This document shows, in pieces, positions 2,904 through 19,768 of a stretch of 21,061 nucleotides of DNA. Origin of the DNA: Candidatus Nanohalobium sp. (lineage in GTDB: Archaea > Nanohalarchaeota > Nanosalinia > Nanosalinales > Nanosalinaceae); the NCBI GenBank assembly GCA_042216335.1, contig JBDGTY010000004.1, positions 4,475 to 25,535 on the forward strand, written 5' to 3'. The stretch's first letter is position 1; each line of letters begins with the position of its first letter. Both the position numbers and the translations under genes were made by a program. The notes under the pieces were generated by a model. The model had not been told where the DNA came from and ran no database searches. It was given only the letters and a program-made list of their open reading frames with translations.

Positions 2904-3392
2904 TTAATCTTCGTCACTGTCTTCTCCATCTTTGTCCTTGTTCCCGAGGATGACCTCTTTCGTGGACTTGTCCCCTTTATCTTTCTTGTCTTTCTCGACC
3001 TGGTCTCTGTCAACGTAGCTCTTCCGTTTCTGCCTTTCCTCGATTTTCTCCCAGATGTATTCGAACGGCTTCGCCACCGTCTTGGCGACGTGGTACGGTA
3101 TCGGTATGACTGTCGAGCCCACCTTGTAGAGCGAGGCCAGGAGGCTGTAAACCATGTAGAGCGATGCTCCAAGGAATGAGAACAGCAGGAGATCGTTGAT
3201 GTCGATCGGGCCGCCCTGCATGTACTTCAGTGTGACGTAGAATGCTCCTGAGAGCAGTGTGACGATGACCGTCTCGAAAACCATCTCCATAAGTTTGAAG
3301 GCGATGACGAGCGCCAGTATCAGGGCTACGACCAGGAGTATGCTTATGCCGCTGCCCTGTGTCTGTACCGCGTTTATTATCTGGTCTATCAC
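2904..3392 (-). CDS. Integral membrane hypothetical protein (about 3 TM, charged C-tail)
   Basis: Three hydrophobic helices and a K/D/E-rich tail. The GTG start overlaps the TGA of the upstream gene (GTGA at 3389-3392). Confidence 0.75.
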   Translation of the reverse strand: MIDQIINAVQTQGSGISILLVVALILALVIAFKLMEMVFETVIVTLLSGAFYVTLKYMQGGPIDINDLLLFSFLGASLYMVYSLLASLYKVGSTVIPIPYHVAKTVAKPFEYIWEKIEERQKRKSYVDRDQVEKDKKDKGDKSTKEVILGNKDKDGEDSDED

Positions 3393-6034
3393 TGTCCCTC
3401 ACCGAGTACGTCGTATAGCGGGTCGCCTTCCTCAGGCACGTAGCTCGTGAAGAAGACGAAACCTATTATCAGTAACAGGATCACGATACCTGCGATCGGA
3501 AGGATCGGGATCCCTCCGCCGCTCTGATTTTGCTGTTGCTGGTCATCCGGGCCTCCGGGGCTTCCCGTTCCCGTGTCGTTGTTGTTTCCTCCGGTGTTCG
3601 GATCCTGGAAGTTGTTCTGCACCTGAGCAGTCACCGGGATCGTCCTCTGCATACTTCCCGCTGTCACCGTAACCGAGCCGGCGCTCGATGAAACGCCGTT
3701 GAACGTGAGTACCAGAGTCCTGCTGCTCCCCGCAGAGATGCTGTCAACTGCAGTTGCGGAGACATCGTAGACGCTGGAGCTTACTGAAACAGGTGATAGC
3801 GCCTGATCTCCGTTGTTTTCCAATGTTATTGTTGCCGAGCCTACTGCCCCGCTTGTGATCTCCCCCAGGCTGATGGAGGAAGGTGTGACAGTCAGTGTTT
3901 GTTCGGTCTGTCCTCCTGTACCCTGGTTTCCTGTGCTGTTCTGTGCAGGGTTGCCGGCTCCCAGATCCGCGATCAGTGTGGTGTCAAGTTCCAGTCTTTC
4001 GCCAGCCTCTGTCGTGAAGACGATCTGGCCGCTGTACTGTCCGGTGGTCTCCGGTGTGTAGGTGAATGTGATATCCTTTTTCTGATCCAGTGTCATGTTG
4101 GTCCTGTTTCCTTCTACCTGCATGTACTGCCCGACCTCTCCCTCGATCGTGACGTTGAAATCTACAGTCTGATCGACCGGCCCGATGTTCCTCAGCGTGA
4201 TGGTCTTCAGTATATCTTCCGTGTTCTCGGCGTTAACCTCTATGCCGCTGGCGGTCTCGCTGCAGATGTCGCCGGCCTCGACCTTGCAGTCCGCAGCGTT
4301 CACGTTAACGTTGAGTGTCTCCGAGTAGTTCGTGTCAGGATCAGTTAAAGTTACACTCCCGGAGACATCCGACAGAGTTGTCAGGTTCACAGCGAACTCC
4401 AGGACGTCACTTCCCGAAGCCGGGATGTCAACCGTTGAGTTAGTCAATTCTACTTCACTCGGCAGATCGGTTGAGACGTCAAGTGTGTTCGACGCCTCTA
4501 TCTCGTTCTGGATATCGACATAGAACATCTCCTTCTGAAGTCTATTAACCGGGAACTCCACGCTATCCGGAACCGTGAAGGTAGCGTCCTGGCTCTTCAC
4601 GTTGAAGCCCGAGGTCGAGAACTGCGTCTCGCCGTAGATATTCGTGGCGTTGACCTCTACGGTGTAGCTGCCCGTCGGCATATCCGAAGTTATCAGGGTC
4701 TCGGCCGTCATAACACCGTTCGCGATATCGTACGTTAGCTCGCTCATCGAAAAGCTTTCGACCATACTCCCGGAAGGATTGAAGACCGAGACGTTGATCA
4801 TCTGGAACCGGTCCTTGCTGTAAGAGTTCAGGGAGTACGGCTTGCCCAGGAAGATCCTGAGTTTGTAGTTGTTGCCGGTGTAGGCCGTCGGAGTACTCCT
4901 GTCCTCGATCTTGAAAGGCCTGAAAGTAACGTTTCTCCTGTCGACATGCCAGCGGTCATCGTTTGATGCATTGAACTTGAACCCGACCTTCTTCATGTAC
5001 CGGGAGGTATTCAGGTCAGGGATCTGGATCTCACCCGTGAAAACACCTGAACCTTGAGAAGAAAGAGTCATGTTCTTCAGGAGATGCCGACCCGACGAAT
5101 TAAACGCGTACATCGAAAGGTTCACCTGATCGGCAGCCGAATTAGTGATATTGTACTCGACCGAGATGTTCGCTCCTGCCTCACAGCTACCGACCATCGA
5201 CTCAGTCCTGCAGCCGTTGGAGGAGCTGAAACCGGTGATATCCCCCGAGATCGCCGGCGCCGTACTCAGGATACGCGAATACGTGCCGTGCTGGCCTGAG
5301 GATGACGTCGCCTTGACATGCATGACGTACTCGGAGTCTGTGGAGTGCGGGAACTCGACCTCGGCGTTGTAGAAGTAGTTCTCCTGAGAGTTATAGTTAT
5401 CCAGCATGAAAGAGTTACCTGGCTCGGAGAAACTGGCCCTGCCAGAGGCGTTGCCGTAGAAGACCTCGACACTCGCCTGAGTATCATCCAGGTAGTTGCC
5501 TGAAGAGGTGTTCAGTACCCGGACATCAAGCTTGTACTGCTTCCCTGCCTTCACGTCACCTTTCTCGTTCTCCATACCGGCGATATCGGTCAGGACCTCG
5601 ACCTTGAGTTCACCCACGTTCAGATCGTCTGTAAGGTTCGCAGGGCCATTGGAAGGCACCTCCGGGGAAAGAGTGGTGCCTGTCGCGTTGTACTTAATCA
5701 TGTCGCCACGCGTAAAGTTGGGCTGGAAATCAGCGTACCAGTAACCGCCGTAGAAGTAATCGAGAAGCGATGCGTTGGCGGAAGTATTGTAGTAATATTT
5801 TATATCCTCGATATCCGACTGGTTCAGGTTGCTCGGCACTACAGCGTTCCAGTTACCGGTCTCAGGATCCTGATACTGTAGCCTAACTACCTGAACGGTT
5901 GAGGTGTTCACACCTGTCTGACCCAGCGAGAAATCAGTGTTTACATCCTGCATCCTCCAGTCGGCCGCAGCCATCGAAACAAAACCGAAAACCAAAGCGA
6001 AAACCAGCAACGCTTTACTCTTCTGAATGTGCAT
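3389..6034 (-). CDS. Large cell-surface glycoprotein (Ig-like beta domains, Sec signal, C-terminal TM anchor)
   Basis: Signal peptide MHIQKSKALLVFALVFGFVSMAAA, more than 20 N-x-S/T sequons, Ig/ASH-like segments (TLRNIG, TLENNG), G/N/Q/T linkers and a C-terminal TM IPILPIAGIVILLLIIGFVFF. Confidence 0.85.
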   Translation of the reverse strand: MHIQKSKALLVFALVFGFVSMAAADWRMQDVNTDFSLGQTGVNTSTVQVVRLQYQDPETGNWNAVVPSNLNQSDIEDIKYYYNTSANASLLDYFYGGYWYADFQPNFTRGDMIKYNATGTTLSPEVPSNGPANLTDDLNVGELKVEVLTDIAGMENEKGDVKAGKQYKLDVRVLNTSSGNYLDDTQASVEVFYGNASGRASFSEPGNSFMLDNYNSQENYFYNAEVEFPHSTDSEYVMHVKATSSSGQHGTYSRILSTAPAISGDITGFSSSNGCRTESMVGSCEAGANISVEYNITNSAADQVNLSMYAFNSSGRHLLKNMTLSSQGSGVFTGEIQIPDLNTSRYMKKVGFKFNASNDDRWHVDRRNVTFRPFKIEDRSTPTAYTGNNYKLRIFLGKPYSLNSYSKDRFQMINVSVFNPSGSMVESFSMSELTYDIANGVMTAETLITSDMPTGSYTVEVNATNIYGETQFSTSGFNVKSQDATFTVPDSVEFPVNRLQKEMFYVDIQNEIEASNTLDVSTDLPSEVELTNSTVDIPASGSDVLEFAVNLTTLSDVSGSVTLTDPDTNYSETLNVNVNAADCKVEAGDICSETASGIEVNAENTEDILKTITLRNIGPVDQTVDFNVTIEGEVGQYMQVEGNRTNMTLDQKKDITFTYTPETTGQYSGQIVFTTEAGERLELDTTLIADLGAGNPAQNSTGNQGTGGQTEQTLTVTPSSISLGEITSGAVGSATITLENNGDQALSPVSVSSSVYDVSATAVDSISAGSSRTLVLTFNGVSSSAGSVTVTAGSMQRTIPVTAQVQNNFQDPNTGGNNNDTGTGSPGGPDDQQQQNQSGGGIPILPIAGIVILLLIIGFVFFTSYVPEEGDPLYDVLGEGQ

Positions 6035-12781: not shown

Positions 12782-13207
12782 TCACTTCTTGATGTACTCC
12801 CGGACTTCTCTGCGGAAAACTTCGAAGTCTCCCAGACCTTCAACTATATTCCTGTATGCTACCTCGTCATCTATAGAGCCGTACCTGCGCGCCAGTGCAT
12901 TCCTGAAACCCTTCATATCCTTCAAACTTTCAGAAAGTTCAGAAGATATTATATCGTCTTCAGCCAGCAGATCCGGAAAACCGGATTCATCCTCAGGAAC
13001 ACCAAGGCTTTCTGCTTTTACTATCATCGCACAGATATCATACGCTGCCTGTATCGCAGTCTTAACGTTCTTGTAGACGCCGTCCTTCTCAATGTCCAAC
13101 TGCTGAAACTCTTCAAACGTATCCGGCAGGTTCTCATCAACCCTATCCAGAGAAGAATCGATTAGATTCAGTTTCTCTCTTATCCTGTCCTCGGTCTGTT
13201 GTTCCAT
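12782..13207 (-). CDS. hepT: HEPN (DUF86) protein with a degenerate active site
   Basis: DUF86 pattern (IQAAYDIC, L.E..II) with motif GFRNALARRYGSID, where Arg replaces the expected His. Confidence 0.85.
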   Translation of the reverse strand: MEQQTEDRIREKLNLIDSSLDRVDENLPDTFEEFQQLDIEKDGVYKNVKTAIQAAYDICAMIVKAESLGVPEDESGFPDLLAEDDIISSELSESLKDMKGFRNALARRYGSIDDEVAYRNIVEGLGDFEVFRREVREYIKK

Positions 13208-13209
13208 TA

Positions 13210-13578
13210 TTAGCCTCCTATCGCTGTCCGGTAGAGCGGTTCAAAGCTTTCGAAGTCCCGAAAGGTTTCAAACGCCTCATCGTAGGCCAAGTCGTCTCTG
13301 CTATACAATAATTCTCCGCTGAAAACCTGCTTCCTGACATGTAGCGGCAAAGCCTCAAAAACAGAGACGTCTATTTCCTCAGGGACTCTGCCATCCAGTT
13401 CCATCTCAAGCTGCTGCGGATTGTCCACATCGGCCGAAATACAGATATCAATGTCGCGTGCAGTCTCCGGACTGTCAACATAAGATCCAAAGAGATAGAC
13501 AAAGCCGATATCCTCTCTGTCAAGACCGACCTCATCGGCTGCATCGAAGACTTCCTCCAGGATTTTCTCTCTTTCCAT
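13210..13578 (-). CDS. mntA: Minimal nucleotidyltransferase (MNT) antitoxin
   Basis: FVYLFGSYVDSPETARDIDICI, DVSVFEALPL and GELLY motifs. Ends 2 nt before the HEPN start. Confidence 0.88.
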   Translation of the reverse strand: MEREKILEEVFDAADEVGLDREDIGFVYLFGSYVDSPETARDIDICISADVDNPQQLEMELDGRVPEEIDVSVFEALPLHVRKQVFSGELLYSRDDLAYDEAFETFRDFESFEPLYRTAIGG

Positions 13579-13611: not shown

Positions 13612-16335
13612 CTACTTCTCGATCCAGATAACATCCAGCTGGACGCACTCACACGTAGTTCCCACAAGCTCCGAGATGTTCGGCTGGGTCCTACCCTCGT
13701 CGCCGTGAATCAACTCCTTGATGTAGGTCCCGGCTTCCGCTTTAACTTCCAGCTCGAACTCTTTCTCTCCGGTCTTCTCCCAGTCCACTTCCAGGACCTC
13801 CCTCTCCCTGGTCTTCTCAGCTCTCCTGTGTTCAACTCTCTCCGGAGTCTCCTGTTCTATCTCACCGACAACCTCGGAGATGTTCTCCAGGTCTTCCTCG
13901 GTTATCTCGTCCTCTGTCTCGACTACTGCCCTGTACTCCTTATCTGAGTGTTTTTGTTTAATTTCAGGAGCTTTGTCTTTGTGAGTATATTGAATGTTGA
14001 AAATTTCTACTTTATCCGTAGACTCGTTGACCTCTTCTTTGAGCTCTTCCAAGTTAAGGTTTCTGTTTAACGGCTCAATCAGTTCTAGTACAAACTCTCT
14101 TTTACCAAAGCATTTAGCATCCACATCTTCTCGGCCAGAATTATGTGTCAAGAAACCATTTGCTGTAAATGTGTGAGGTTTCGAAACCTCTAGGCTAGTC
14201 AATTTATCTATTTCGGTTTTCTGGATTGATTCTATCCTATCCCAGTAGTAGCCATCGTCGTTCCAGTTTTCTTCATACCATTCATTGAATGTTGGGAAGC
14301 TATTCTTAGCCTTCATGTTTTCAAGCGGATTTAAATCTCGGTTGAGCCAAGTCCAAAGGTTAGACTTTGTAACCCAGTCTGAAACTTTTTCATGGATCTT
14401 CGATAGTTTCATTCCCTTGTCATCTAACTCTACTGCTGTTCTATATGCTTCTTTCCTATTCTCTATTTCTCTTCTTTTAGTCTTAAGATAGGCTAAGAAT
14501 GCTAAACTTCTCTCCTTCTTTTCTTTATGTACTTCGAATCCGACATTTTCTAGGAAGTCTATCATGTTCTGGTAGTTATTTTTTATATCAAAGGCGATTT
14601 TGTACGATAGACAGCCATCATCTCTTTGGGTATACTTATTCGTTCTAATCTTACCTGTCTCAACATCAAATTCTTCTAGAATTTCTTTCAATTGTAGTGC
14701 GTACTTTTCTGCAGAATCCTTTTGAGATTCTATTTTATTTAAGGAGAACTTGATTGAGGTCATACTTTTCCGGTTATATTCTCTATTGTCTATCCTAGGT
14801 GTCTCAGCCTCACAACCTAGTAGAGCCGAAACAAAGTTCATCTTCACGCATTTACTTCCCTCCATTATCCAGTTAGGGACCTCAAATTCTTTCTTTGTTT
14901 TTTCTCCTACAGGCACACCTAACGCAACCAGTAGCGTCCAAAGAGACTTAGAATACACCGCAACTTCATTACAATCTCCTGAAATAAGTTTCTCTTTCCC
15001 CTCTGCAGAAGTTACGGTTGTTTCTGATTTCCTACATCTTTCAAGAGAAGTTTCAAATCCTAGAGATTCTATTTCCTCTGTAATGCCTTTAATCTGTGGT
15101 TTTCCACCATAAAATGCTAAAGTAGTGTCTCTATCGCGAGTAACCATTGCGCTGCCATCCCCTAGAAGAACCCCAATTAGTCTAGAAATAGAACGAATGT
15201 TCTCATGAGAAGATTCCAAGGGTAAAAGGCCTTTACTCGCCAATTCTCTGAAAATCTTATCTCTATTGACGGATTCAAAGTACTCGTCCATGACGCTATG
15301 CAAATCTTCTTTATCGGCAATTCTATTCCCGCTAGATGAGTAGTTCTCTTTTCTTTCTCTTACTAACACCTCGTCGGACTTATCTAACTTGCCCGCTACC
15401 ACAAACCCGTCTCTAGTATTGAATGGGTGACTGGTAGTTGTAACCAAGTTCTTCCCGGTCCAAGTATTTACTTCCACTGTTTTAATATCTTGAGCCATGA
15501 AAGTCAAACTATCTTCAACTTCGACACTGTCTGAACTCTCTGTATCCTCTCTAAATGTTGGAATAGAATTTCCTACCTCTACCTCTGAGGCTGAAACTCT
15601 GCCCAATTTGGAGTCATAAGCGACACAGCCATGGAACTTGGATTCTACCGCTTTGCTTTCTCTGAGGAAAGGCCCTTCGATCTCCTGCTGCACACTTGTC
15701 GGGTACTGGTGGCCTGTCCAGTCACATTCCTCACATCCGCTGCCCCTGCAGTTCCTGCAGTGCCACTCCGTCTGCGGGATCTCACGGCTGTACTTGTTGT
15801 ACTGGCCGTAGATCAAAAGCGAGTTAACCTGAAGCTCCACCCTCTCACGGCCTTCACGCATATCAACTACTGCCATGATATCGGCCCGATCGAAGTCGAC
15901 CTGAATATCCAGTCGCTCCTCCATCTTCTTTCCGAGAAGCCGGGAGAGCTCGGTCTTGAGAGGTTCTGTCCACTCAACGCCGTACTCCTCCCAGAGCTCT
16001 TCCTCCGCCCTGACAGACTCCTCACGGGGCCGTATGCCGATCAGGAAGGTCTCCAGTTCGTACCTCTCAAACGAGTCTTCCACCATGTCGGCCCAGCGAT
16101 CCAGCTCGTCAAAGACTCCTTCACAGATCTCGCATTCTCCACCGATCTCTGCGTCCTCCGGAACGTTCTCCCGGACAAAATCATCTTCGTCAAGTTCTTC
16201 AGTATTTCTGATTATCTGTCCTCTCTCGAAGTTCTCAAGTCCGTGGCCGAGCTGGGCGAACTGTCTCCCCAGGCAGTGATCACAGAGTTCTTCATTTTCC
16301 AAGAGCTGGTCGGCTTTTTCCTGAATACTGAGCAT
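13612..16335 (-). CDS. pus10: tRNA pseudouridine(54/55) synthase Pus10, intein-containing (about 411-aa mature protein)
   Basis: N-terminal LCDHCLGRQF and CEIC, YGQYNKYSREIPQTEW, FHG|SGREDVDA catalytic motif, QETPERVEHRR, AEAGTYIKELIHGD-GRTQP. Confidence 0.95.
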   Translation of the reverse strand: MLSIQEKADQLLENEELCDHCLGRQFAQLGHGLENFERGQIIRNTEELDEDDFVRENVPEDAEIGGECEICEGVFDELDRWADMVEDSFERYELETFLIGIRPREESVRAEEELWEEYGVEWTEPLKTELSRLLGKKMEERLDIQVDFDRADIMAVVDMREGRERVELQVNSLLIYGQYNKYSREIPQTEWHCRNCRGSGCEECDWTGHQYPTSVQQEIEGPFLRESKAVESKFHGCVAYDSKLGRVSASEVEVGNSIPTFREDTESSDSVEVEDSLTFMAQDIKTVEVNTWTGKNLVTTTSHPFNTRDGFVVAGKLDKSDEVLVRERKENYSSSGNRIADKEDLHSVMDEYFESVNRDKIFRELASKGLLPLESSHENIRSISRLIGVLLGDGSAMVTRDRDTTLAFYGGKPQIKGITEEIESLGFETSLERCRKSETTVTSAEGKEKLISGDCNEVAVYSKSLWTLLVALGVPVGEKTKKEFEVPNWIMEGSKCVKMNFVSALLGCEAETPRIDNREYNRKSMTSIKFSLNKIESQKDSAEKYALQLKEILEEFDVETGKIRTNKYTQRDDGCLSYKIAFDIKNNYQNMIDFLENVGFEVHKEKKERSLAFLAYLKTKRREIENRKEAYRTAVELDDKGMKLSKIHEKVSDWVTKSNLWTWLNRDLNPLENMKAKNSFPTFNEWYEENWNDDGYYWDRIESIQKTEIDKLTSLEVSKPHTFTANGFLTHNSGREDVDAKCFGKREFVLELIEPLNRNLNLEELKEEVNESTDKVEIFNIQYTHKDKAPEIKQKHSDKEYRAVVETEDEITEEDLENISEVVGEIEQETPERVEHRRAEKTREREVLEVDWEKTGEKEFELEVKAEAGTYIKELIHGDEGRTQPNISELVGTTCECVQLDVIWIEK
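14140..15627 (-). mobile_element. Intein (496 aa) with a LAGLIDADG homing endonuclease in pus10
   Basis: Starts Cys1 (CVAYDSK), block B TTSHPF, LAGLIDADG motifs LIGVLLGDGS and FVSALLGCEA, ends HTFTANGFLTHN followed by Ser+1. The DNA is visibly AT-richer than the host gene. Confidence 0.95.
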
Positions 16336-16371: not shown

Positions 16372-18738
16372 TCAATCCCACTGTGAGCCATCGAACCTCT
16401 TGACCTTGAAAGGCCTTACCCAACTGTCTCCATCGTAGATCTTGACAGTACCCGGTGAAAAGCTCGAGTTGTAGTACTGTAAACCATAACCTGTCTTGAG
16501 GGAAACAGTGCCAGAGTCGGAAGCCGTATGTTCAGTGAAAGTTCGAACCTTGGCGACATAATTCTGATTAAACAGCAGATCAGACGTCGTGAACGATGTT
16601 TTATTCGCTGATATGTCGCTTCCCTGCTGGGAGAAAGTTGAGCCGCCATCAGTCGAAAGCATCAACCTGAACCCATCCTCGTTGTTCGAGTTGTCAGTCC
16701 AGGAAGCCGAGATCCTGTTGTTCTTTATTATAGAAGCTGAGAATCTGGAAGGCGGTGGCAGAATCGTTGTTCCAGAGATAGTAGAGGAGTCAGCTGAGTA
16801 TTCTGCCTGGATACTGCCATGACGTGCCTGTTCAGCTGTTGCCCGGGAAAAGACATCGTATTTCTCGCCGTCAAGCAAACCGGTAAATGTGTAAGTAGTG
16901 AGATCAGCCGCAAGGTTATCTTTGTGCGTCCAAGTACTTGACCCTGTAGGCCGGATCTTGGCCTCATACTTGGTATTGACCGATGCGTTATCAACCCATG
17001 AAGCCGTTACCTCACGTTTTATGGAAGTATCAAGAGATAGGCTTGTCGGTGCCGCTGGCTTAGTATACTCGTGGACGATGTCAGAAACGACCACATGGTC
17101 TACTGCAACGTAGTCTCCCCCTCCTGCCTCATCTCCCTGAATTCGAATACGATTATCTGTAGAGAGCAGCGAGTCCGGAACCTCAATCGCTGCCTCAACC
17201 CATCCATTCCTGTTATATTCCCACGAATAGGAACCTGCCTCGATTTTCTGCCACGATGAACCATCGTACCACTCAAAGTGAATATCATCTGAATCTGCAT
17301 CGAAAGATCCAACCGCCAGAACAGACTTTATGAAAACATCGCTCTCATTCGAGATATCTCCAAGATTCTTCTGGATGTAATCAGATCCATCAAGCCTCAC
17401 ATAGTAACTCCCCTGATCTGCACCAGAAATACCGAGACTATTATTGCTTCCCGAGTAAATTCCACCGCCTCCAGAAAAATCTGTAGCAGACCACTCCGAT
17501 AAATCCTGATCCTCAAAATCGTCCTTGAAGTATACATTACCCTCGTTGCCGTAATCGGCGTAAACCCACTTGCTGGTGCCTCCATCCGGAGCCACGGTTC
17601 TCAGCCTGAACTGGTACCGGGCATCTATCTCAAACCAGGAGTACTTATCATTGTCGAAGTGATGAAGATCGTCCGGGTCGGTAGTAGCCGCCTTCCAGGA
17701 TCCGTATCCTGATCCGGTATCCTTCCGGTACTGGATCTCGACGTGATCAAAAATATCGGTTCTGTTTGACCAGTTGATGTTTAATTGAGTACTGTTTCGG
17801 TTATCCACGAAAGGAGAATGCGGCGGAATTGGATCAGTATAGACTGTTCCAGACTGCGTCCAGGACGAACTGCCGGCCGAGTTCTCCGCTCTAACCCGGA
17901 ACTGGAATGATGAGTCTATACCGACAAACGAGTCATAGCTAACGTCACTCGTCGAATTGTAGGTCGCCGAAGTCGTACCCGACGCCGGCGTAGTAGGCCC
18001 ACCCGAAGGATCAACATATGAGGCAGCATCCCGCGAAAGCTGAATATGATAATTACCTTTTTCGCCTCCCCAATCAGAGGGGGGATCCCATGAAGCTGTT
18101 ATAGAATCGTTCGAGTTAACATTTAAGGCAAGATTTGAAGGTGCTGAAGGCGGTGAGACCGGAGTTGTATAGAAAGCATCCCACCACATGTAAGTGTTGT
18201 CAGGATTATCTGCAGGATGCCAATTTCCCGAATTATAGTTGTGTAGTTCAACAGCCGCGATATCAGTTCCGTTGATAAAACTACCAGTATAGGATTTGGT
18301 TGTACCCGACTGAAGATCCTCAAATGTCACGGTGAATTCAGAGTTAGACCAGTCAAATGTGGCAGATACTCTGATCCATCTATCATAACCATCTCCACCA
18401 TAAACTTCTGTAATCCCACTGCTATCATCAACATTCCATTGAGGGTTATTTGTGGCGAAACCACACTCATAGTTCCCGTTAGAGTTCTTCAACCGGACTC
18501 CAGAACCGTAGGAACTTGAAGACTCTTGAAAATAAAATTCAAACTCTGACGCCTGTTTGCCCGTCCCGTTCCAAGGCTGCCAAACTGCAAAATCATCTGG
18601 ATCACTTGGCGTGTCTGCTTGCACAGAACCAGAGTAAGATCCATCGTACACTCTATCACTAGCAGCTGAATTAAACGAGCCATTGTTTACAGTAAAACTT
18701 CCATCTGATTTAGAATCAAAATTGTACTCTTTAACCAT
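16372..18738 (-). CDS. Fibronectin type III repeat protein with lectin-like beta-sandwich domains and no signal peptide
   Basis: Four Fn3-like units (PSAPSNL..ITASW..FQFRVRAEN; LNINW..YQFRLRT; PAAPTSL..VTASW..TGLLDGEKY; PPSRF..ISASWTDNSNNEDGF). W/Y/D/S-rich ConA/CBM-like domains lie at the N-terminus and in the middle. Confidence 0.85.
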   Translation of the reverse strand: MVKEYNFDSKSDGSFTVNNGSFNSAASDRVYDGSYSGSVQADTPSDPDDFAVWQPWNGTGKQASEFEFYFQESSSSYGSGVRLKNSNGNYECGFATNNPQWNVDDSSGITEVYGGDGYDRWIRVSATFDWSNSEFTVTFEDLQSGTTKSYTGSFINGTDIAAVELHNYNSGNWHPADNPDNTYMWWDAFYTTPVSPPSAPSNLALNVNSNDSITASWDPPSDWGGEKGNYHIQLSRDAASYVDPSGGPTTPASGTTSATYNSTSDVSYDSFVGIDSSFQFRVRAENSAGSSSWTQSGTVYTDPIPPHSPFVDNRNSTQLNINWSNRTDIFDHVEIQYRKDTGSGYGSWKAATTDPDDLHHFDNDKYSWFEIDARYQFRLRTVAPDGGTSKWVYADYGNEGNVYFKDDFEDQDLSEWSATDFSGGGGIYSGSNNSLGISGADQGSYYVRLDGSDYIQKNLGDISNESDVFIKSVLAVGSFDADSDDIHFEWYDGSSWQKIEAGSYSWEYNRNGWVEAAIEVPDSLLSTDNRIRIQGDEAGGGDYVAVDHVVVSDIVHEYTKPAAPTSLSLDTSIKREVTASWVDNASVNTKYEAKIRPTGSSTWTHKDNLAADLTTYTFTGLLDGEKYDVFSRATAEQARHGSIQAEYSADSSTISGTTILPPPSRFSASIIKNNRISASWTDNSNNEDGFRLMLSTDGGSTFSQQGSDISANKTSFTTSDLLFNQNYVAKVRTFTEHTASDSGTVSLKTGYGLQYYNSSFSPGTVKIYDGDSWVRPFKVKRFDGSQWD

Positions 18739-18768
18739 TTTAACCCATCAAAACCATGAAATCTATCT

Positions 18769-19149
18769 TTAAGAAGTATCTATCCAGATATCGTTGGTTT
18801 CAGGGTTTGAAGGTGCTGAACTACCTACATGGACATCATGGCCATCTACTTCATCTGCGTTTACATCGGATTGGCCGCTGCTTGCAGGTTGAAAAACACT
18901 CCACTCCAGTCCTGCTACAGAAGAGGAGAGTGCTAGACTTCCTGCACCCATACCCAGCAATTTTAGGAAATTTCTTCGAGACAGAACAGACTTCTGCTCT
19001 TCATCATCTTTAGACAGTCCAGAACCTATATTTTTGGAACCTTCACCTTTTCTTTCACACTCATCTTGTCTGTCCTCTGCTCCTACAGATTTTCCTCTCT
19101 GGTTACGTTTTTCATGATTGCTTGTTGAGTCTTCGGTTTCTTCAGCCAT
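18769..19149 (-). CDS. Small twin-arginine (Tat) signal protein with a tail-fibre-like C-terminal motif
   Basis: SRRNFLK followed by the hydrophobic LLGMGAGSLALSSSVAG. Ends NADEVDGHDVHVGSSAPSNPETNDIWIDTS. Confidence 0.75.
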   Translation of the reverse strand: MAEETEDSTSNHEKRNQRGKSVGAEDRQDECERKGEGSKNIGSGLSKDDEEQKSVLSRRNFLKLLGMGAGSLALSSSVAGLEWSVFQPASSGQSDVNADEVDGHDVHVGSSAPSNPETNDIWIDTS

Positions 19150-19222
19150 GTTGAATGAAATACAGATCGCTGTTTAAAATTCTTCTCTATCTTCTCATCA
19201 GGAACAGTAAGAGCGGGAATCT

Positions 19223-19768
19223 TCAGGATTTTTGAGAATATTCTTCAGTCCTCCTGATCGTCATTTCACCTTCTCTAATTTCAATGAGGTTTACCTGGAT
19301 AGAAGCATCTTCAGAAGTTCCTATATCCAGCATCGTCGGATTTCCTCTCCTGCTGGAGCCTCCGCCTACTCCTGTGCAGCTTCCAGGATTCAGGATTACG
19401 CATTCTTCGAGTTCTGTGATTTCTTCTTCGTGAGTGTGGCCGGTGATGAGTATGTCGACCTCTAAATCTTCTGTCGCTATCTTCTGTAGTGTGTCGTGGT
19501 CGCCGCGCGGGTTGATGCCCGTTCCATGATAGACTCCGAACTTCACGCCGTTTCTCTCGAAGGTTTCCGAGTTCGGGAGGTCGAAAAAGTCACAGTTCCC
19601 CCTCACTGCCACCAATTCTCCGTATTCATCTATACCGTTCTTGACGGGTTTTTCGTCGAAGTCTCCTGCGTGGACGATGAGGTCTGATTCCTTCATTTTT
19701 TCCCTGAACTGTTTCGGGATCTTGTCTGCGCGGGTTGGGACGTGGGAGTCGGATACTACTGCTATCAT
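19223..19768 (-). CDS. YfcE/MJ0936/Vps29-family metallophosphoesterase
   Basis: SDSH, HAGD, VRGNCD, YHG, TGHTH and NPGS motifs. The start is ATG 19768 (MIAVVSDSH), with a TTTAAA box about 26-31 nt upstream. Confidence 0.93.
   Translation of the reverse strand: MIAVVSDSHVPTRADKIPKQFREKMKESDLIVHAGDFDEKPVKNGIDEYGELVAVRGNCDFFDLPNSETFERNGVKFGVYHGTGINPRGDHDTLQKIATEDLEVDILITGHTHEEEITELEECVILNPGSCTGVGGGSSRRGNPTMLDIGTSEDASIQVNLIEIREGEMTIRRTEEYSQKS

What the first reader, a model, noticed from the sequence alone, without database searches (positions are those of the whole stretch)
16372..19149. Two-gene surface-fibre module: Tat carrier plus signal-less Fn3/lectin protein sharing a split phage tail-fibre-like motif
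Seen: the 126-aa protein has a Tat signal (SRRNFLK plus h-region) and only about 45 mature residues, ending NADEVDGH-DVHVGSSAPSNPETNDIWIDTS*. The next gene (788 aa, 4 Fn3 plus lectin-like domains) looks extracellular but has no signal peptide or TM anchor. It ends in repeated beta-hairpins LQYYNSSF / VKIYDGDSW / VKRFDGSQWD*. From my recollection of phage tail and fibre proteins, NADxVDGxH and APxxPxxGDxWxDTs...LKxWdGxxW occur as one contiguous module. Here the two halves sit at the C-termini of two separate adjacent proteins. Established: Tat exports folded complexes, and signal-less partners can hitchhike. Inference: the small protein is a Tat-exported, possibly trimeric, adaptor that captures the large adhesin by beta-strand complementation. 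That would be a modular, virus-derived display system with swappable cargo, plausibly for host attachment in a symbiotic archaeon.
Basis: partly seen in the sequence, partly recalled or inferred. Interest (0 to 1): 0.85.

Follow-up and report, generated by a model that had tools for sequence, protein, structure and literature searches.

The report
Tat carrier with phage-fibre docking partner
A tiny export-tagged protein and the large untagged surface-type protein encoded next to it carry the two halves of a plug-and-socket motif that tailed viruses use to hang tip proteins on their fibres, suggesting that a salt-loving nano-archaeon borrowed it to carry adhesin-like cargo to its surface.

Summary
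Window 18769-19149(-) encodes a 126-aa protein with a twin-arginine (Tat) signal and about 45 mature residues ending ..NDIWIDTS. Window 16372-18738(-) encodes a 788-aa signal-less protein with Fn3 and jelly-roll domains that ends in three beta-hairpins.

The two are separate genes, not one broken gene. Both halves recur as a set. Among 70 genomes of the phylum I found 7 Tat proteins that stop right after this motif. Five of them are followed at once by a signal-less protein ending in three hairpins, and the cargo type differs (Fn3/jelly-roll or glycine-rich). These are the only 5 such tails found.

One-chain forms also exist in relatives. The same split occurs in phages: a fibre protein ends in the strand motif and the next protein starts or ends with three hairpins (mycobacteriophage Galactic gp23/24, Gordonia phage Suzy gp27/28, viral contigs).

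The genome has TatA and TatC. The pair sits among housekeeping genes and is missing from the same site in sister strains.

Binding and co-export were not shown. The one complex prediction gave no verdict and the folds were too poor to read. Best reading (about 0.5): a virus-derived docking pair exported by Tat hitchhiking. I rate it a new variant of known kinds.

The parts
18769..19149 (-). Carrier gene (P0001, 126 aa plus stop): long charged n-region, Tat signal, about 45-aa mature stalk.
   Evidence: ORF list. Translation. Paralogue 58% identical elsewhere in the genome (C47).
18922..18984 (-). Tat signal core, residues 56-76 (SRRNFLK plus h-region).
   Evidence: TIGR01409 scores 25.0 bits against cut-off 16.7. 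Pfam TAT_signal scores 19.1 against 22.7, below its cut-off. TatC and TatA genes are present in the genome.
18772..18906 (-). Predicted mature part, residues 82-126. It contains NADEVDGH and SSAPSNPETNDIWIDTS. The last eight residues (18772-18795) are the 'A strand' that ends the protein.
   Evidence: Alignment A1 of six such carriers; invariant columns include P, S, P and DIW. Weak PHROG hits whose profiles also end at this point: phrog_22680 at E 9.3e-4 and the tail-fiber family phrog_15651 at E 0.12.
18735..18770 (-). Relic in the +1 frame of the 30-nt spacer. It reads ..KDRFHGFDGLKW, a hairpin-like unit placed just after the carrier's stop, as in phage-like loci where the partner starts with hairpins.
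   Evidence: Sequence. About 3.7e-4 such motifs are expected by chance in the spacer. The in-frame reading of the spacer has three stops (TAA, TAG, TGA), read directly.
16372..18738 (-). Cargo gene (P0002, 788 aa plus stop), signal-less: jelly roll, Fn3 x2, jelly roll, Fn3 x2, hairpin tail.
   Evidence: Paralogue in C47 is 65% identical over residues 189-788.
18154..18738 (-). N-terminal beta-sandwich, residues 1-195. This domain differs in the C47 paralogue.
   Evidence: No Pfam family. Atlas structural neighbours are Sialidase-like CBM and similar, at TM 0.71-0.80; a lead only. The paralogue match starts at residue 189.
17044..17541 (-). Central beta-sandwich, residues 400-565.
   Evidence: Atlas neighbours are MAM / Cleaved_Adhesin / CBM_4_9 at TM 0.67-0.78; a lead only.
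16375..16503 (-). C-terminal tail, residues 746-788: three tandem beta-hairpin units at a 14-residue period. The first unit is degenerate.
   Evidence: The same three-unit tail is found in 4 other archaeal cargo proteins and in 6 phage or phage-like partners.

Best explanation
The two genes encode a two-part secreted or surface complex built on a docking module taken from tailed viruses.

The small protein is a Tat substrate. Its short mature part is essentially the last ~45 residues of a virus tail fibre and ends in one beta-strand (..P..P..NDIWIDTS). The large protein has no signal of its own. It consists of Fn3 and carbohydrate-binding-like beta-sandwiches and ends in three tandem hairpins (x-K-x-[YF]-D-G-x-x-W).

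In one-chain relatives and in phage fibres, the strand and one hairpin form one contiguous small beta unit. Here they lie on two polypeptides. I infer that the carrier's terminal strand completes the cargo's hairpin array. This could be either three carriers on one three-hairpin tail or one carrier at the free edge of the array. I further infer that the folded complex forms in the cytoplasm, leaves through TatAC by hitchhiking, and shows the adhesin-like cargo outside the cell.

Shown: gene structure; Tat signal; Tat machinery; absence of a signal on the cargo; recurrence of the split pair with swapped cargo; one-chain forms; phage counterparts; presence/absence variation of the cassette.

Inferred: binding, stoichiometry, co-export, retention at the surface and role in attachment.
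For: Separate genes. Across the five archaeal pairs the junctions differ: a 30-nt spacer with three in-frame stops, 527 nt, an overlapping TAATG, and 14-nt spacers with an AGGAG-like or AGGCGG-like stretch before an ATG or TTG start. An independent contig shows no gap across the window's junction.

Tat. TIGR01409 is above its cut-off for P0001 and for 6 of the 7 carriers scanned. TatC (E 1.4e-54) and TatA (E 1.5e-11) are present in the genome. In G017 and G073 the carrier lies beside tatC or tatA.

Linkage, carrier side. The carrier profile A1 was searched over 70 genomes of the phylum. It found 7 carriers that end at the motif, in 6 genomes. Five of the 7 are directly followed by a signal-less protein with the three-hairpin tail.

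Linkage, cargo side. The tail part of profile A2 hits only those 5 proteins in the 70 genomes. In the window's own genome, 2 of 7212 frames carry the tail, and both follow a carrier.

Swappable parts. Cargo is either Fn3/jelly-roll (window, C47) or glycine-rich: ALK_LTK_GRD at E 7e-5 and 7e-7, and phrog_33719 at 2e-16 and 2e-19. The mature parts of the carriers range from about 45 to about 340 residues.

One-chain forms. G011 has strand and hairpin contiguous, followed by another domain. G013 has the strand before a WD40 propeller and the hairpin after it, at the very C-terminus.

Phage counterparts. Galactic gp23/gp24, Suzy gp27 (collagen-like fibre)/gp28, RcIroh gp12 and gp14, Bxb1 gp32/gp33, metagenome loci L092 and L095, and viral contig L102. 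All have three hairpins at a 13-14 residue period.

Aromatic residues. By eye, across the 12 pairs read, strands with W go with hairpins ending in W. Strands with Y (Galactic, Suzy) go with hairpins ending in F.

Virus link. The G003 Tat carrier is 70% identical over its last 57 residues to a non-Tat, fibre-like protein.
Against: No physical evidence of binding or export exists.

Two of the 7 carriers (G027 and G073, one genus) have no hairpin protein beside them, and none was found in their genomes with A2.

A third pair in G003 is an 80-aa Tat protein with a degenerate end plus a 755-aa homologue of P0002. It lacks the hairpin tail. A small Tat protein can therefore sit beside this cargo family without the motif.

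In viral contig G074, three proteins ending in the strand motif stand in tandem, and the only hairpin protein found is more than 13 kb away. Adjacency is not universal.

Pfam's own Tat model is below its cut-off.

Known Tat hitchhikers are cofactor enzymes (established knowledge; review listings), and no cofactor domain is present here.

All archaeal examples come from one phylum and partly from one genus, so they are not independent.
Confidence: 0.5

Rival explanations
1. The two proteins dock through the strand/hairpin module, but export is not by Tat hitchhiking. For example, only the carrier is exported and the cargo acts inside the cell, or the cargo is released by some other route and joins the carrier outside.
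For: The docking inference rests on the same comparative data. Nothing here tests the export route. Phage pairs with the same module assemble in the cytoplasm without any signal.
Against: The cargo domains (Fn3, CBM/MAM-like, glycine-rich fibre-tip type) are typical of extracellular or virion-surface proteins. One-chain relatives carry the Tat signal themselves, for example G011, G013 and the 409-aa glycine-rich protein of G017. The same domains are therefore meant to go out through Tat. No other signal or membrane segment is present in the cargo.
Confidence: 0.2
2. There is no interaction. The two motifs travel together only because both genes descend from one phage tail-fibre cassette. The small protein is a stand-alone secreted peptide or a leftover.
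For: Two carriers have no partner. One neighbouring pair lacks the tail. The spacer holds a relic hairpin, which shows past rearrangement. The module is virus-derived.
Against: Both motifs stay at the extreme termini while everything else is exchanged: cargo domains, carrier length, and N- versus C-terminal placement of the hairpins. The tail region is the best-kept part between the two paralogues: 90% identity over the last 49 residues, against 65% over residues 189-788. All ORFs are intact.
Confidence: 0.17
3. It is one gene that is broken (a pseudogene or an assembly error), or one gene read as a single protein by programmed frameshift or read-through.
For: Both ORFs are in the same frame, 30 nt apart. 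The +1 frame of the spacer continues the motif. In L092 a single stop separates the two ORFs in frame.
Against: There are three in-frame stops in the spacer. The paralogue and the carriers of four other genomes stop at the same residue but have different junction lengths and frames. An independent contig has 0 gaps across the junction. The +1 frame ends 29 codons later without joining the cargo frame.
Confidence: 0.05
4. The locus is a decayed provirus tail fragment with no cellular role.
For: The docking module and the cargo types are phage-like. The cassette is missing from the same site in sister genomes and in a second sample.
Against: None of the 16 neighbouring ORFs scanned matches a virus-specific Pfam family. 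They include CTP synthase, KsgA, Pus10, a phosphoesterase and an ArsR-type regulator. The carrier belongs to a family of 7 Tat-leader paralogues spread over the genome. Both ORFs are intact and a second full copy exists.
Confidence: 0.05

Closest known systems
Tat 'hitchhiker' co-export: a signal-bearing subunit carries a signal-less partner. Examples are E. coli PaoABC and the small Tat-tagged subunit of Burkholderia FAD-glucose dehydrogenase (abstracts in the listing: PMC4273604, PMC6719666). HybO/HybC is recalled, not from a call.
   Same: One partner has the twin-arginine signal and the adjacent gene's product has none. The carrier can be small. Tat moves folded complexes.
   Different: The known cases are cofactor-bearing redox enzymes whose subunits share a catalytic complex. 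Here the mature carrier is about 45 residues with no enzyme domain. The cargo is adhesin-like. The proposed interface is a phage-fibre strand/hairpin module. Co-export is not shown.
Phage fibre/tip gene pairs with the same split module: Mycobacterium phage Galactic gp23/gp24, Gordonia phage Suzy gp27/gp28, Mycobacterium phage Bxb1 gp32/gp33 (gp33 is the 'tail wing brush' of PDB 9d93), and Rhodobacter phage RcIroh gp12 and gp14.
   Same: The upstream protein ends in the ..P..P..G-x-[LI]-[WY]-x-x-x strand. The partner carries three tandem hairpins at a 13-14 residue period at one terminus. The genes are adjacent or nearly so, on one strand. The glycine-rich tip domain is of the same kind as in the G003 and G019 cargo.
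   Different: The phage proteins have no signal peptide and are virion parts. The hairpins are mostly N-terminal there. In the actinophage pairs the aromatic residues are Y and F rather than W and W. I found no description of this docking in print. The Bxb1 structure paper was not held, so it may already describe the gp33 N-terminus.
Contiguous fibre repeat in tail fibres of cyanophages and other phages (S-N03 QIN96650, uvMED BAQ94218), and at the C-terminus of PDB 9d83 Gp49.
   Same: The same sequence unit, with strand, turn and hairpin in one chain.
   Different: It is contiguous and often tandem, not split. The sequence matches are weak: best tblastn E 2e-3, and E 0.038 for the PDB profile search.
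Pfam DUF2510 (a short W..YWDG..W unit) and the WW domain.
   Same: A small three-stranded unit with a similar pattern of aromatic residues.
   Different: Only a sub-threshold hit, on a relative's tail: DUF2510 at E 0.012 and 15.8 bits against a cut-off of 24. The WW domain hit is E 0.2. Neither hits P0002. This protein is not a member by these tests.

Membership tests
Tat signal peptide (TIGR01409 / PF10518) | The S/T-R-R-x-F-L-K motif followed by a hydrophobic h-region. | tested here: met
   SRRNFLK is at residues 57-63. The most hydrophobic 15-residue window starts at residue 61 (mean 1.37).
Tat signal peptide (TIGR01409 / PF10518) | The profile score lies above the curated cut-off. | tested here: inconclusive
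   NCBIfam TIGR01409 passes: 25.0 against 16.7. Pfam PF10518 fails: 19.1 against 22.7.
Tat signal peptide (TIGR01409 / PF10518) | Tat machinery is encoded in the genome. | tested here: met
   TatC at E 1.4e-54 and TatA at E 1.5e-11, both above their cut-offs, on contig C56.
Tat hitchhiker pair | The partner lacks any signal peptide or membrane segment. | tested here: met
   Hydropathy scan of all five cargo proteins. None has an N-terminal hydrophobic stretch, and the maximum 15-residue mean anywhere is 1.26. No signal-peptide predictor was available.
Tat hitchhiker pair | The two proteins form a complex before export. | tested here: inconclusive
   The one complex job (1:1) returned no verdict. 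Only comparative linkage supports binding.
Tat hitchhiker pair | Export of the partner depends on the carrier's RR motif. | not testable with these tools
   This needs expression with RR and KK variants.
Phage split fibre/tip pair (strand-ended protein plus three-hairpin partner) | The strand motif lies at the extreme C-terminus of the upstream protein. | tested here: met
   P0001 ends ..SSAPSNPETNDIWIDTS. Of the best 150 hits to the carrier profile, 27 end within 3 residues of the motif.
Phage split fibre/tip pair (strand-ended protein plus three-hairpin partner) | The partner has three tandem hairpins at a 13-14 residue period at one terminus. | tested here: met
   P0002 has units at about residues 753 (degenerate), 767 and 781, ending the protein.
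Phage split fibre/tip pair (strand-ended protein plus three-hairpin partner) | The proteins are part of a virion, in a viral genome context. | tested here: not met
   The neighbours are housekeeping genes and the carrier has a Tat signal.
Fibronectin type III (PF00041) | The profile score lies above the cut-off. | tested here: met
   E 2.6e-19, 69.7 bits against a cut-off of 25, in 3 stretches.
DUF2510 (PF10708) | The profile score lies above the cut-off. | tested here: not met
   No hit on P0002. The G003 cargo tail scores 15.8 bits against a cut-off of 24.

The most novel reading that the evidence does not exclude
The strand-plus-three-hairpin pair is a general plug-and-socket joint. Tailed viruses of bacteria and archaea would use it to hang a single tip protein on a trimeric fibre, with three fibre ends each completing one hairpin. 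Nanohaloarchaea would have fused the plug to a Tat leader, making an exchangeable, virus-derived display system. That system would export folded, signal-less adhesins by hitchhiking and help the symbiont hold on to its haloarchaeal host.
Probability: 0.3. Interest if true: 0.85.

Novelty: new variant of a known kind. Interest (0 to 1): 0.68.

Why it matters
If the reading is right, three things follow.

First, it would be a Tat hitchhiker pair that has nothing to do with redox cofactors. A minimal carrier would exist only to take a folded adhesin out of the cell.

Second, it would define a compact docking joint, about 8 residues against about 43. That joint seems to be shared by many phage fibre/tip pairs (344 phage records match the three-hairpin unit). 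It could explain how tip proteins are exchanged between fibres.

Third, it would give DPANN biology concrete candidates for host-attachment proteins of viral origin. These sit in a cassette that differs between close strains.

All three points can be tested with ordinary pull-down and export assays.

Tried and rejected
Complex prediction. I sent carrier residues 82-126 with cargo residues 661-788 at 1:1, each with its own small alignment. The tool returned 'no answer' (score 0.02, mark 0.32, controls not run). It counts neither for nor against binding. With hindsight a 3:1 job would have been the better use of the single job.

Folds.
- Cargo Fn3 plus tail (alignment A2): mean pLDDT 34.6, unusable.
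- G013 one-chain form (alignment A6): mean pLDDT 62.4, but the strand (residues 1-50) and the terminal hairpin (343-361) are below 50. The fold says nothing on their pairing.

Searches that found little.
- The search for homologous proteins with P0001 found only P0001 itself.
- A 50-residue tail query over 61 genomes found only the paralogue and the G003 tail at E 1e-3 or better; two further hits, in G037 and G052, were weak (E 0.028 and 0.0985). The profile search was needed.
It was repeated with three sequences.

Solved structures by sequence. There was nothing convincing for the module: the best hit was 9d83 Gp49 at E 0.038. RcIroh gp12, Suzy gp28 and Bxb1 gp32 have no solved relative.

Flanking repeats. 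No convincing direct or inverted repeats flank the cassette.

RNA. No RNA holder was listed for this stretch.

Literature. Searches found no description of the system. One search (PDB codes as search terms) gave only unrelated papers. The Bxb1 structure paper was not held.

Rejected readings. Read-through or frameshift fusion, and provirus remnant, were both rejected; see the rival explanations.
Full report
WHAT IS THERE

On the minus strand of the window lie two ORFs, 30 nt apart.

P0001 (18769-19149, 126 aa) has three parts:
- a 55-residue charged N-region;
- SRRNFLK followed by a hydrophobic stretch;
- about 45 further residues ending ..NADEVDGHDVHVGSSAPSNPETNDIWIDTS.

NCBIfam's Tat-signal model scores 25.0 bits against a cut-off of 16.7. 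Pfam's model scores 19.1 against 22.7 and so fails. The genome encodes TatC (E 1.4e-54) and TatA (E 1.5e-11).

P0002 (16372-18738, 788 aa) matches fn3 at E 2.6e-19 in three stretches, plus two weaker Fn3-like hits. Two further segments, residues 1-195 and 400-565, have no Pfam family. Their neighbours in the ESM Atlas are carbohydrate-binding or MAM-type jelly rolls at TM 0.7-0.8, which is a lead only. P0002 has no hydrophobic N-terminus and no membrane segment. It ends in three hairpin units at a 14-residue period.

ONE BROKEN GENE OR TWO GENES?

The two ORFs share a frame, but the spacer has three in-frame stops.

The +1 frame of the spacer reads ..KDRFHGFDGLKW, a hairpin-like unit. The strict motif occurs 17 times in 2.04 million six-frame residues of the genome, so about 3.7e-4 are expected in the spacer. 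It is therefore a relic, not chance. That frame stops 29 codons later without joining P0002.

A paralogous pair on contig C47 has a 124-aa carrier that stops at the same residue. Its 733-aa cargo lies 527 nt further on.

Carriers in other genomes also stop at this point, with different junctions: an overlapping TAATG in G003, and 14-nt spacers with an AGGAG-like or AGGCGG-like stretch in G017 and G019.

A contig from a second sample (X2, record 13) crosses the window's junction with no gap.

These are separate cistrons. Recoding or an assembly error is unlikely.

THE TWO HALVES BELONG TO ONE MODULE

In relatives the same leader and stalk run on in one chain.
- In G011 the strand is followed after a short turn by a hairpin (..GTLFYDTDGEGVHYYNGSSW..) and then another domain.
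- In G013 the strand precedes a WD40 propeller and the hairpin ends the protein.

In phage tail fibres the unit is contiguous and often tandem. Three units occur in the Synechococcus phage S-N03 tail fibre and one in a uvMED podovirus tail fibre. The sequence matches are weak, with a best E of 2e-3. PHROG profiles that match the end of P0001 also end there: phrog_22680 at E 9.3e-4, and the tail-fiber family phrog_15651 at E 0.12.

THE SPLIT PAIR RECURS WITH EXCHANGED PARTS

I searched a profile of six carriers (A1) over all 70 genomes held for the phylum. It found 7 carriers that end at the motif, in 6 genomes. Relatives' records are titled Candidatus Nanohaloarchaea.

Five of the 7 are followed at once by a signal-less protein ending in three hairpins:
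- the window's cargo;
- the C47 cargo;
- G003, 300 aa;
- G017, 260 aa;
- G019, 320 aa.

From the other side, the tail part of profile A2 hits only these five proteins in the 70 genomes. In the window's own genome, only 2 of 7212 open frames carry the tail.

The cargo differs between pairs. It is Fn3/jelly-roll here and in C47. In G003 and G019 it is a glycine-rich domain: ALK_LTK_GRD at E 7e-5 and 7e-7, and phrog_33719 at 2e-16 and 2e-19. The G017 cargo looks alike but has only a weak Gly_rich_2 hit at E 0.047. Carriers differ as well, from about 45 to about 340 mature residues.

Exceptions:
- G027 and G073 (one genus) have a 180-183-aa carrier with no such neighbour, and no tail was found in their genomes.
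- G003 has a third pair, an 80-aa Tat protein with a degenerate end plus a 755-aa homologue of P0002 without the tail.

A search of 1.84 billion representative proteins with A1 gave 1217 hits at E 1e-3 or better. Of the best 150, 27 end within three residues of the motif. Of those 27:
- 8 carry a twin-arginine leader, two of them new (P0054, P0107);
- the rest look like acidic halovirus-type or bacterial-phage fibre proteins.

Their gene neighbourhoods could not be seen.

THE SAME SPLIT EXISTS IN VIRUSES

Two metagenome loci hold a fibre-like protein ending ..DIWIEV or ..DIWIQT. Each is followed at once by a gene that starts with three hairpins.

A 54-kb viral contig holds a 588-aa fibre-like protein ending ..GDIWIDTSTVLS. 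It is followed by a 193-aa protein (196-residue open frame) ending in three hairpins.

A tblastn search with the three-hairpin unit hits 344 phage records, of which 302 are Mycobacterium phages. In the records I read:
- Galactic gp23 (minor tail protein) ends ..GVLYVVVP. gp24 starts with three hairpins and continues as a glycine-rich domain. That domain is homologous to Bxb1 gp33, the 'tail wing brush' of PDB 9d93 (E 5.6e-77).
- Gordonia phage Suzy gp27, a collagen-like tail fibre, ends ..GKLYVTP. gp28 starts with three hairpins.
- Bxb1 gp32 (63 aa) ends ..DTIYVVVE. It stands before gp33, whose N-terminus is a degenerate version of the hairpins.
- Rhodobacter phage RcIroh gp12 ends ..GDLWVDTN. 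gp14, two genes on, ends in three hairpins.

All have three units at a 13-14 residue period.

Adjacency is not universal. In viral contig G074, three proteins ending in the strand motif stand in tandem. The only hairpin protein found is over 13 kb away and has two units.

By eye, strands with W go with hairpins ending in W, and strands with Y with hairpins ending in F. This may reflect a single lineage split.

CONTEXT

The window's other genes are housekeeping or ordinary cellular genes:
- CTP synthase;
- KsgA;
- DUF655;
- a PHP protein;
- a HepT/MNT pair;
- Pus10 with an intein;
- a phosphoesterase;
- an ArsR-type regulator.

No virus-specific Pfam family was found among the 16 ORFs scanned.

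The carrier is one of seven paralogues in this genome that share the long leader and the conserved stretch after the h-region.

In two genomes of the same genus (G001, G002) the phosphoesterase and Pus10 genes are direct neighbours. In G003 a different carrier and cargo sit before Pus10. A contig of sample X2 joins 16372 to 19329 with 104 other letters between. The pair is therefore a cassette that is present, absent or exchanged among close strains. No flanking repeats were found.

MECHANISM

I infer that the carrier's terminal strand completes the cargo's hairpin array, and that the folded complex leaves through TatAC by hitchhiking. One-chain relatives with the same domains carry the Tat leader themselves, so these domains are meant to be exported by Tat.

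Two stoichiometries fit.
- Three carriers per cargo. The number three is constant, phage fibres are trimers, and Suzy gp27 is collagen-like.
- One carrier at the free edge of a six-stranded meander. In tandem arrays the W-strand to next-hairpin spacing is 8-9 residues, against 11 in contiguous units. Each second strand could therefore serve the next hairpin.

Whether the signal is cut or kept as a membrane anchor is open.

None of this was shown. The only complex job (1:1) gave no verdict, and both folds were too poor at the relevant parts.

COMPARISON AND NOVELTY

The system works like a Tat hitchhiker pair and like a phage fibre/tip pair, but it is a full member of neither. It lacks the cofactor enzyme of the first and the virion context of the second.

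I found no paper describing the docking module or the archaeal pairs. I saw listings and abstracts, and passages of PMC12646305, PMC13243192 and PMC7443923. The Bxb1 structure paper (Freeman et al. 2025) was not held and may bear on the phage side. Supplementary files were not consulted.

I rate it a new variant of known kinds, with interest 0.68. The comparative pattern is strong and testable. The mechanism is inferred.

Noticed in passing
window 13612-16335 (-): The tRNA pseudouridine synthase Pus10 gene carries an intein. There is a Pfam Intein_splicing hit across residues 279-732, and G+C drops to 0.375-0.39 over 14001-15500. The Pus10 frames of G001 and G003 (same genus) are only 414-417 aa, so the intein is absent there.
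   Followed up: partly
G000 contigs C3, C10, C16, C29, C34, C38, C47 (loci L001-L007): Seven paralogous Tat proteins share an unusually long charged n-region. Most have an ..IEELIE.KVEEKL..-like helix 30-50 residues before the RR. All share a conserved ..AG.xWSV(L/F)QP.S.G.SD.. stretch right after the h-region, and their mature domains vary. There are weak hits to TIGR04519, an extended Tat leader of molybdoenzymes (P0054: 18.1 bits against 20.6). This could be a chaperone-binding or processing site.
   Followed up: partly
L010 5760-6160 (-) = G000 contig C47, between the paralogous carrier and cargo: The 527-nt spacer holds a further small reading frame (MDTKSS.. to ..VEVPNQ). It is interrupted by one in-frame TAA and has no start codon after the stop. 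It may be a broken third gene of the cassette.
   Followed up: no
L031 (G017:C1:681000-692000) and L053 (G073:C5): In G017 the carrier-cargo pair lies next to tatA- and tatC-like genes. In G073 a 180-aa carrier starts 11 nt inside the end of tatC, and a second small Tat protein follows it.
   Followed up: partly
L033 4940-5113 (-) (G027:C3): A 166-aa Tat protein with contiguous strand and hairpin ends at a TGA. The +1 frame then continues with ..DGSDGSITRTTNG.., which in G017's 409-aa protein is part of the same chain. This is another split at a module boundary.
   Followed up: no
window 12782-13578 (-): An adjacent pair: a HepT-like RNase (E 7e-25) and a Pol-beta-type nucleotidyltransferase (E 1e-11). 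Together they form a HEPN/MNT-type toxin-antitoxin pair. Similar pairs lie near the carrier loci of G003 and G017.
   Followed up: no
window 3389-6034 (-): An 881-aa ORF with no Pfam family at E 1e-5 or better. The ORFs at 1012-1590 and 2202-2879 also have none.
   Followed up: no
L122 (G074:C1:71000-76200), viral contig: Three tandem fibre-like genes (211, 368 and 371 aa) each end in ..NDIW(I/V)DT(S/G)G. They are followed by a LamG-like protein of over 600 aa. This looks like a set of alternative 'plugs' in one virus.
   Followed up: partly
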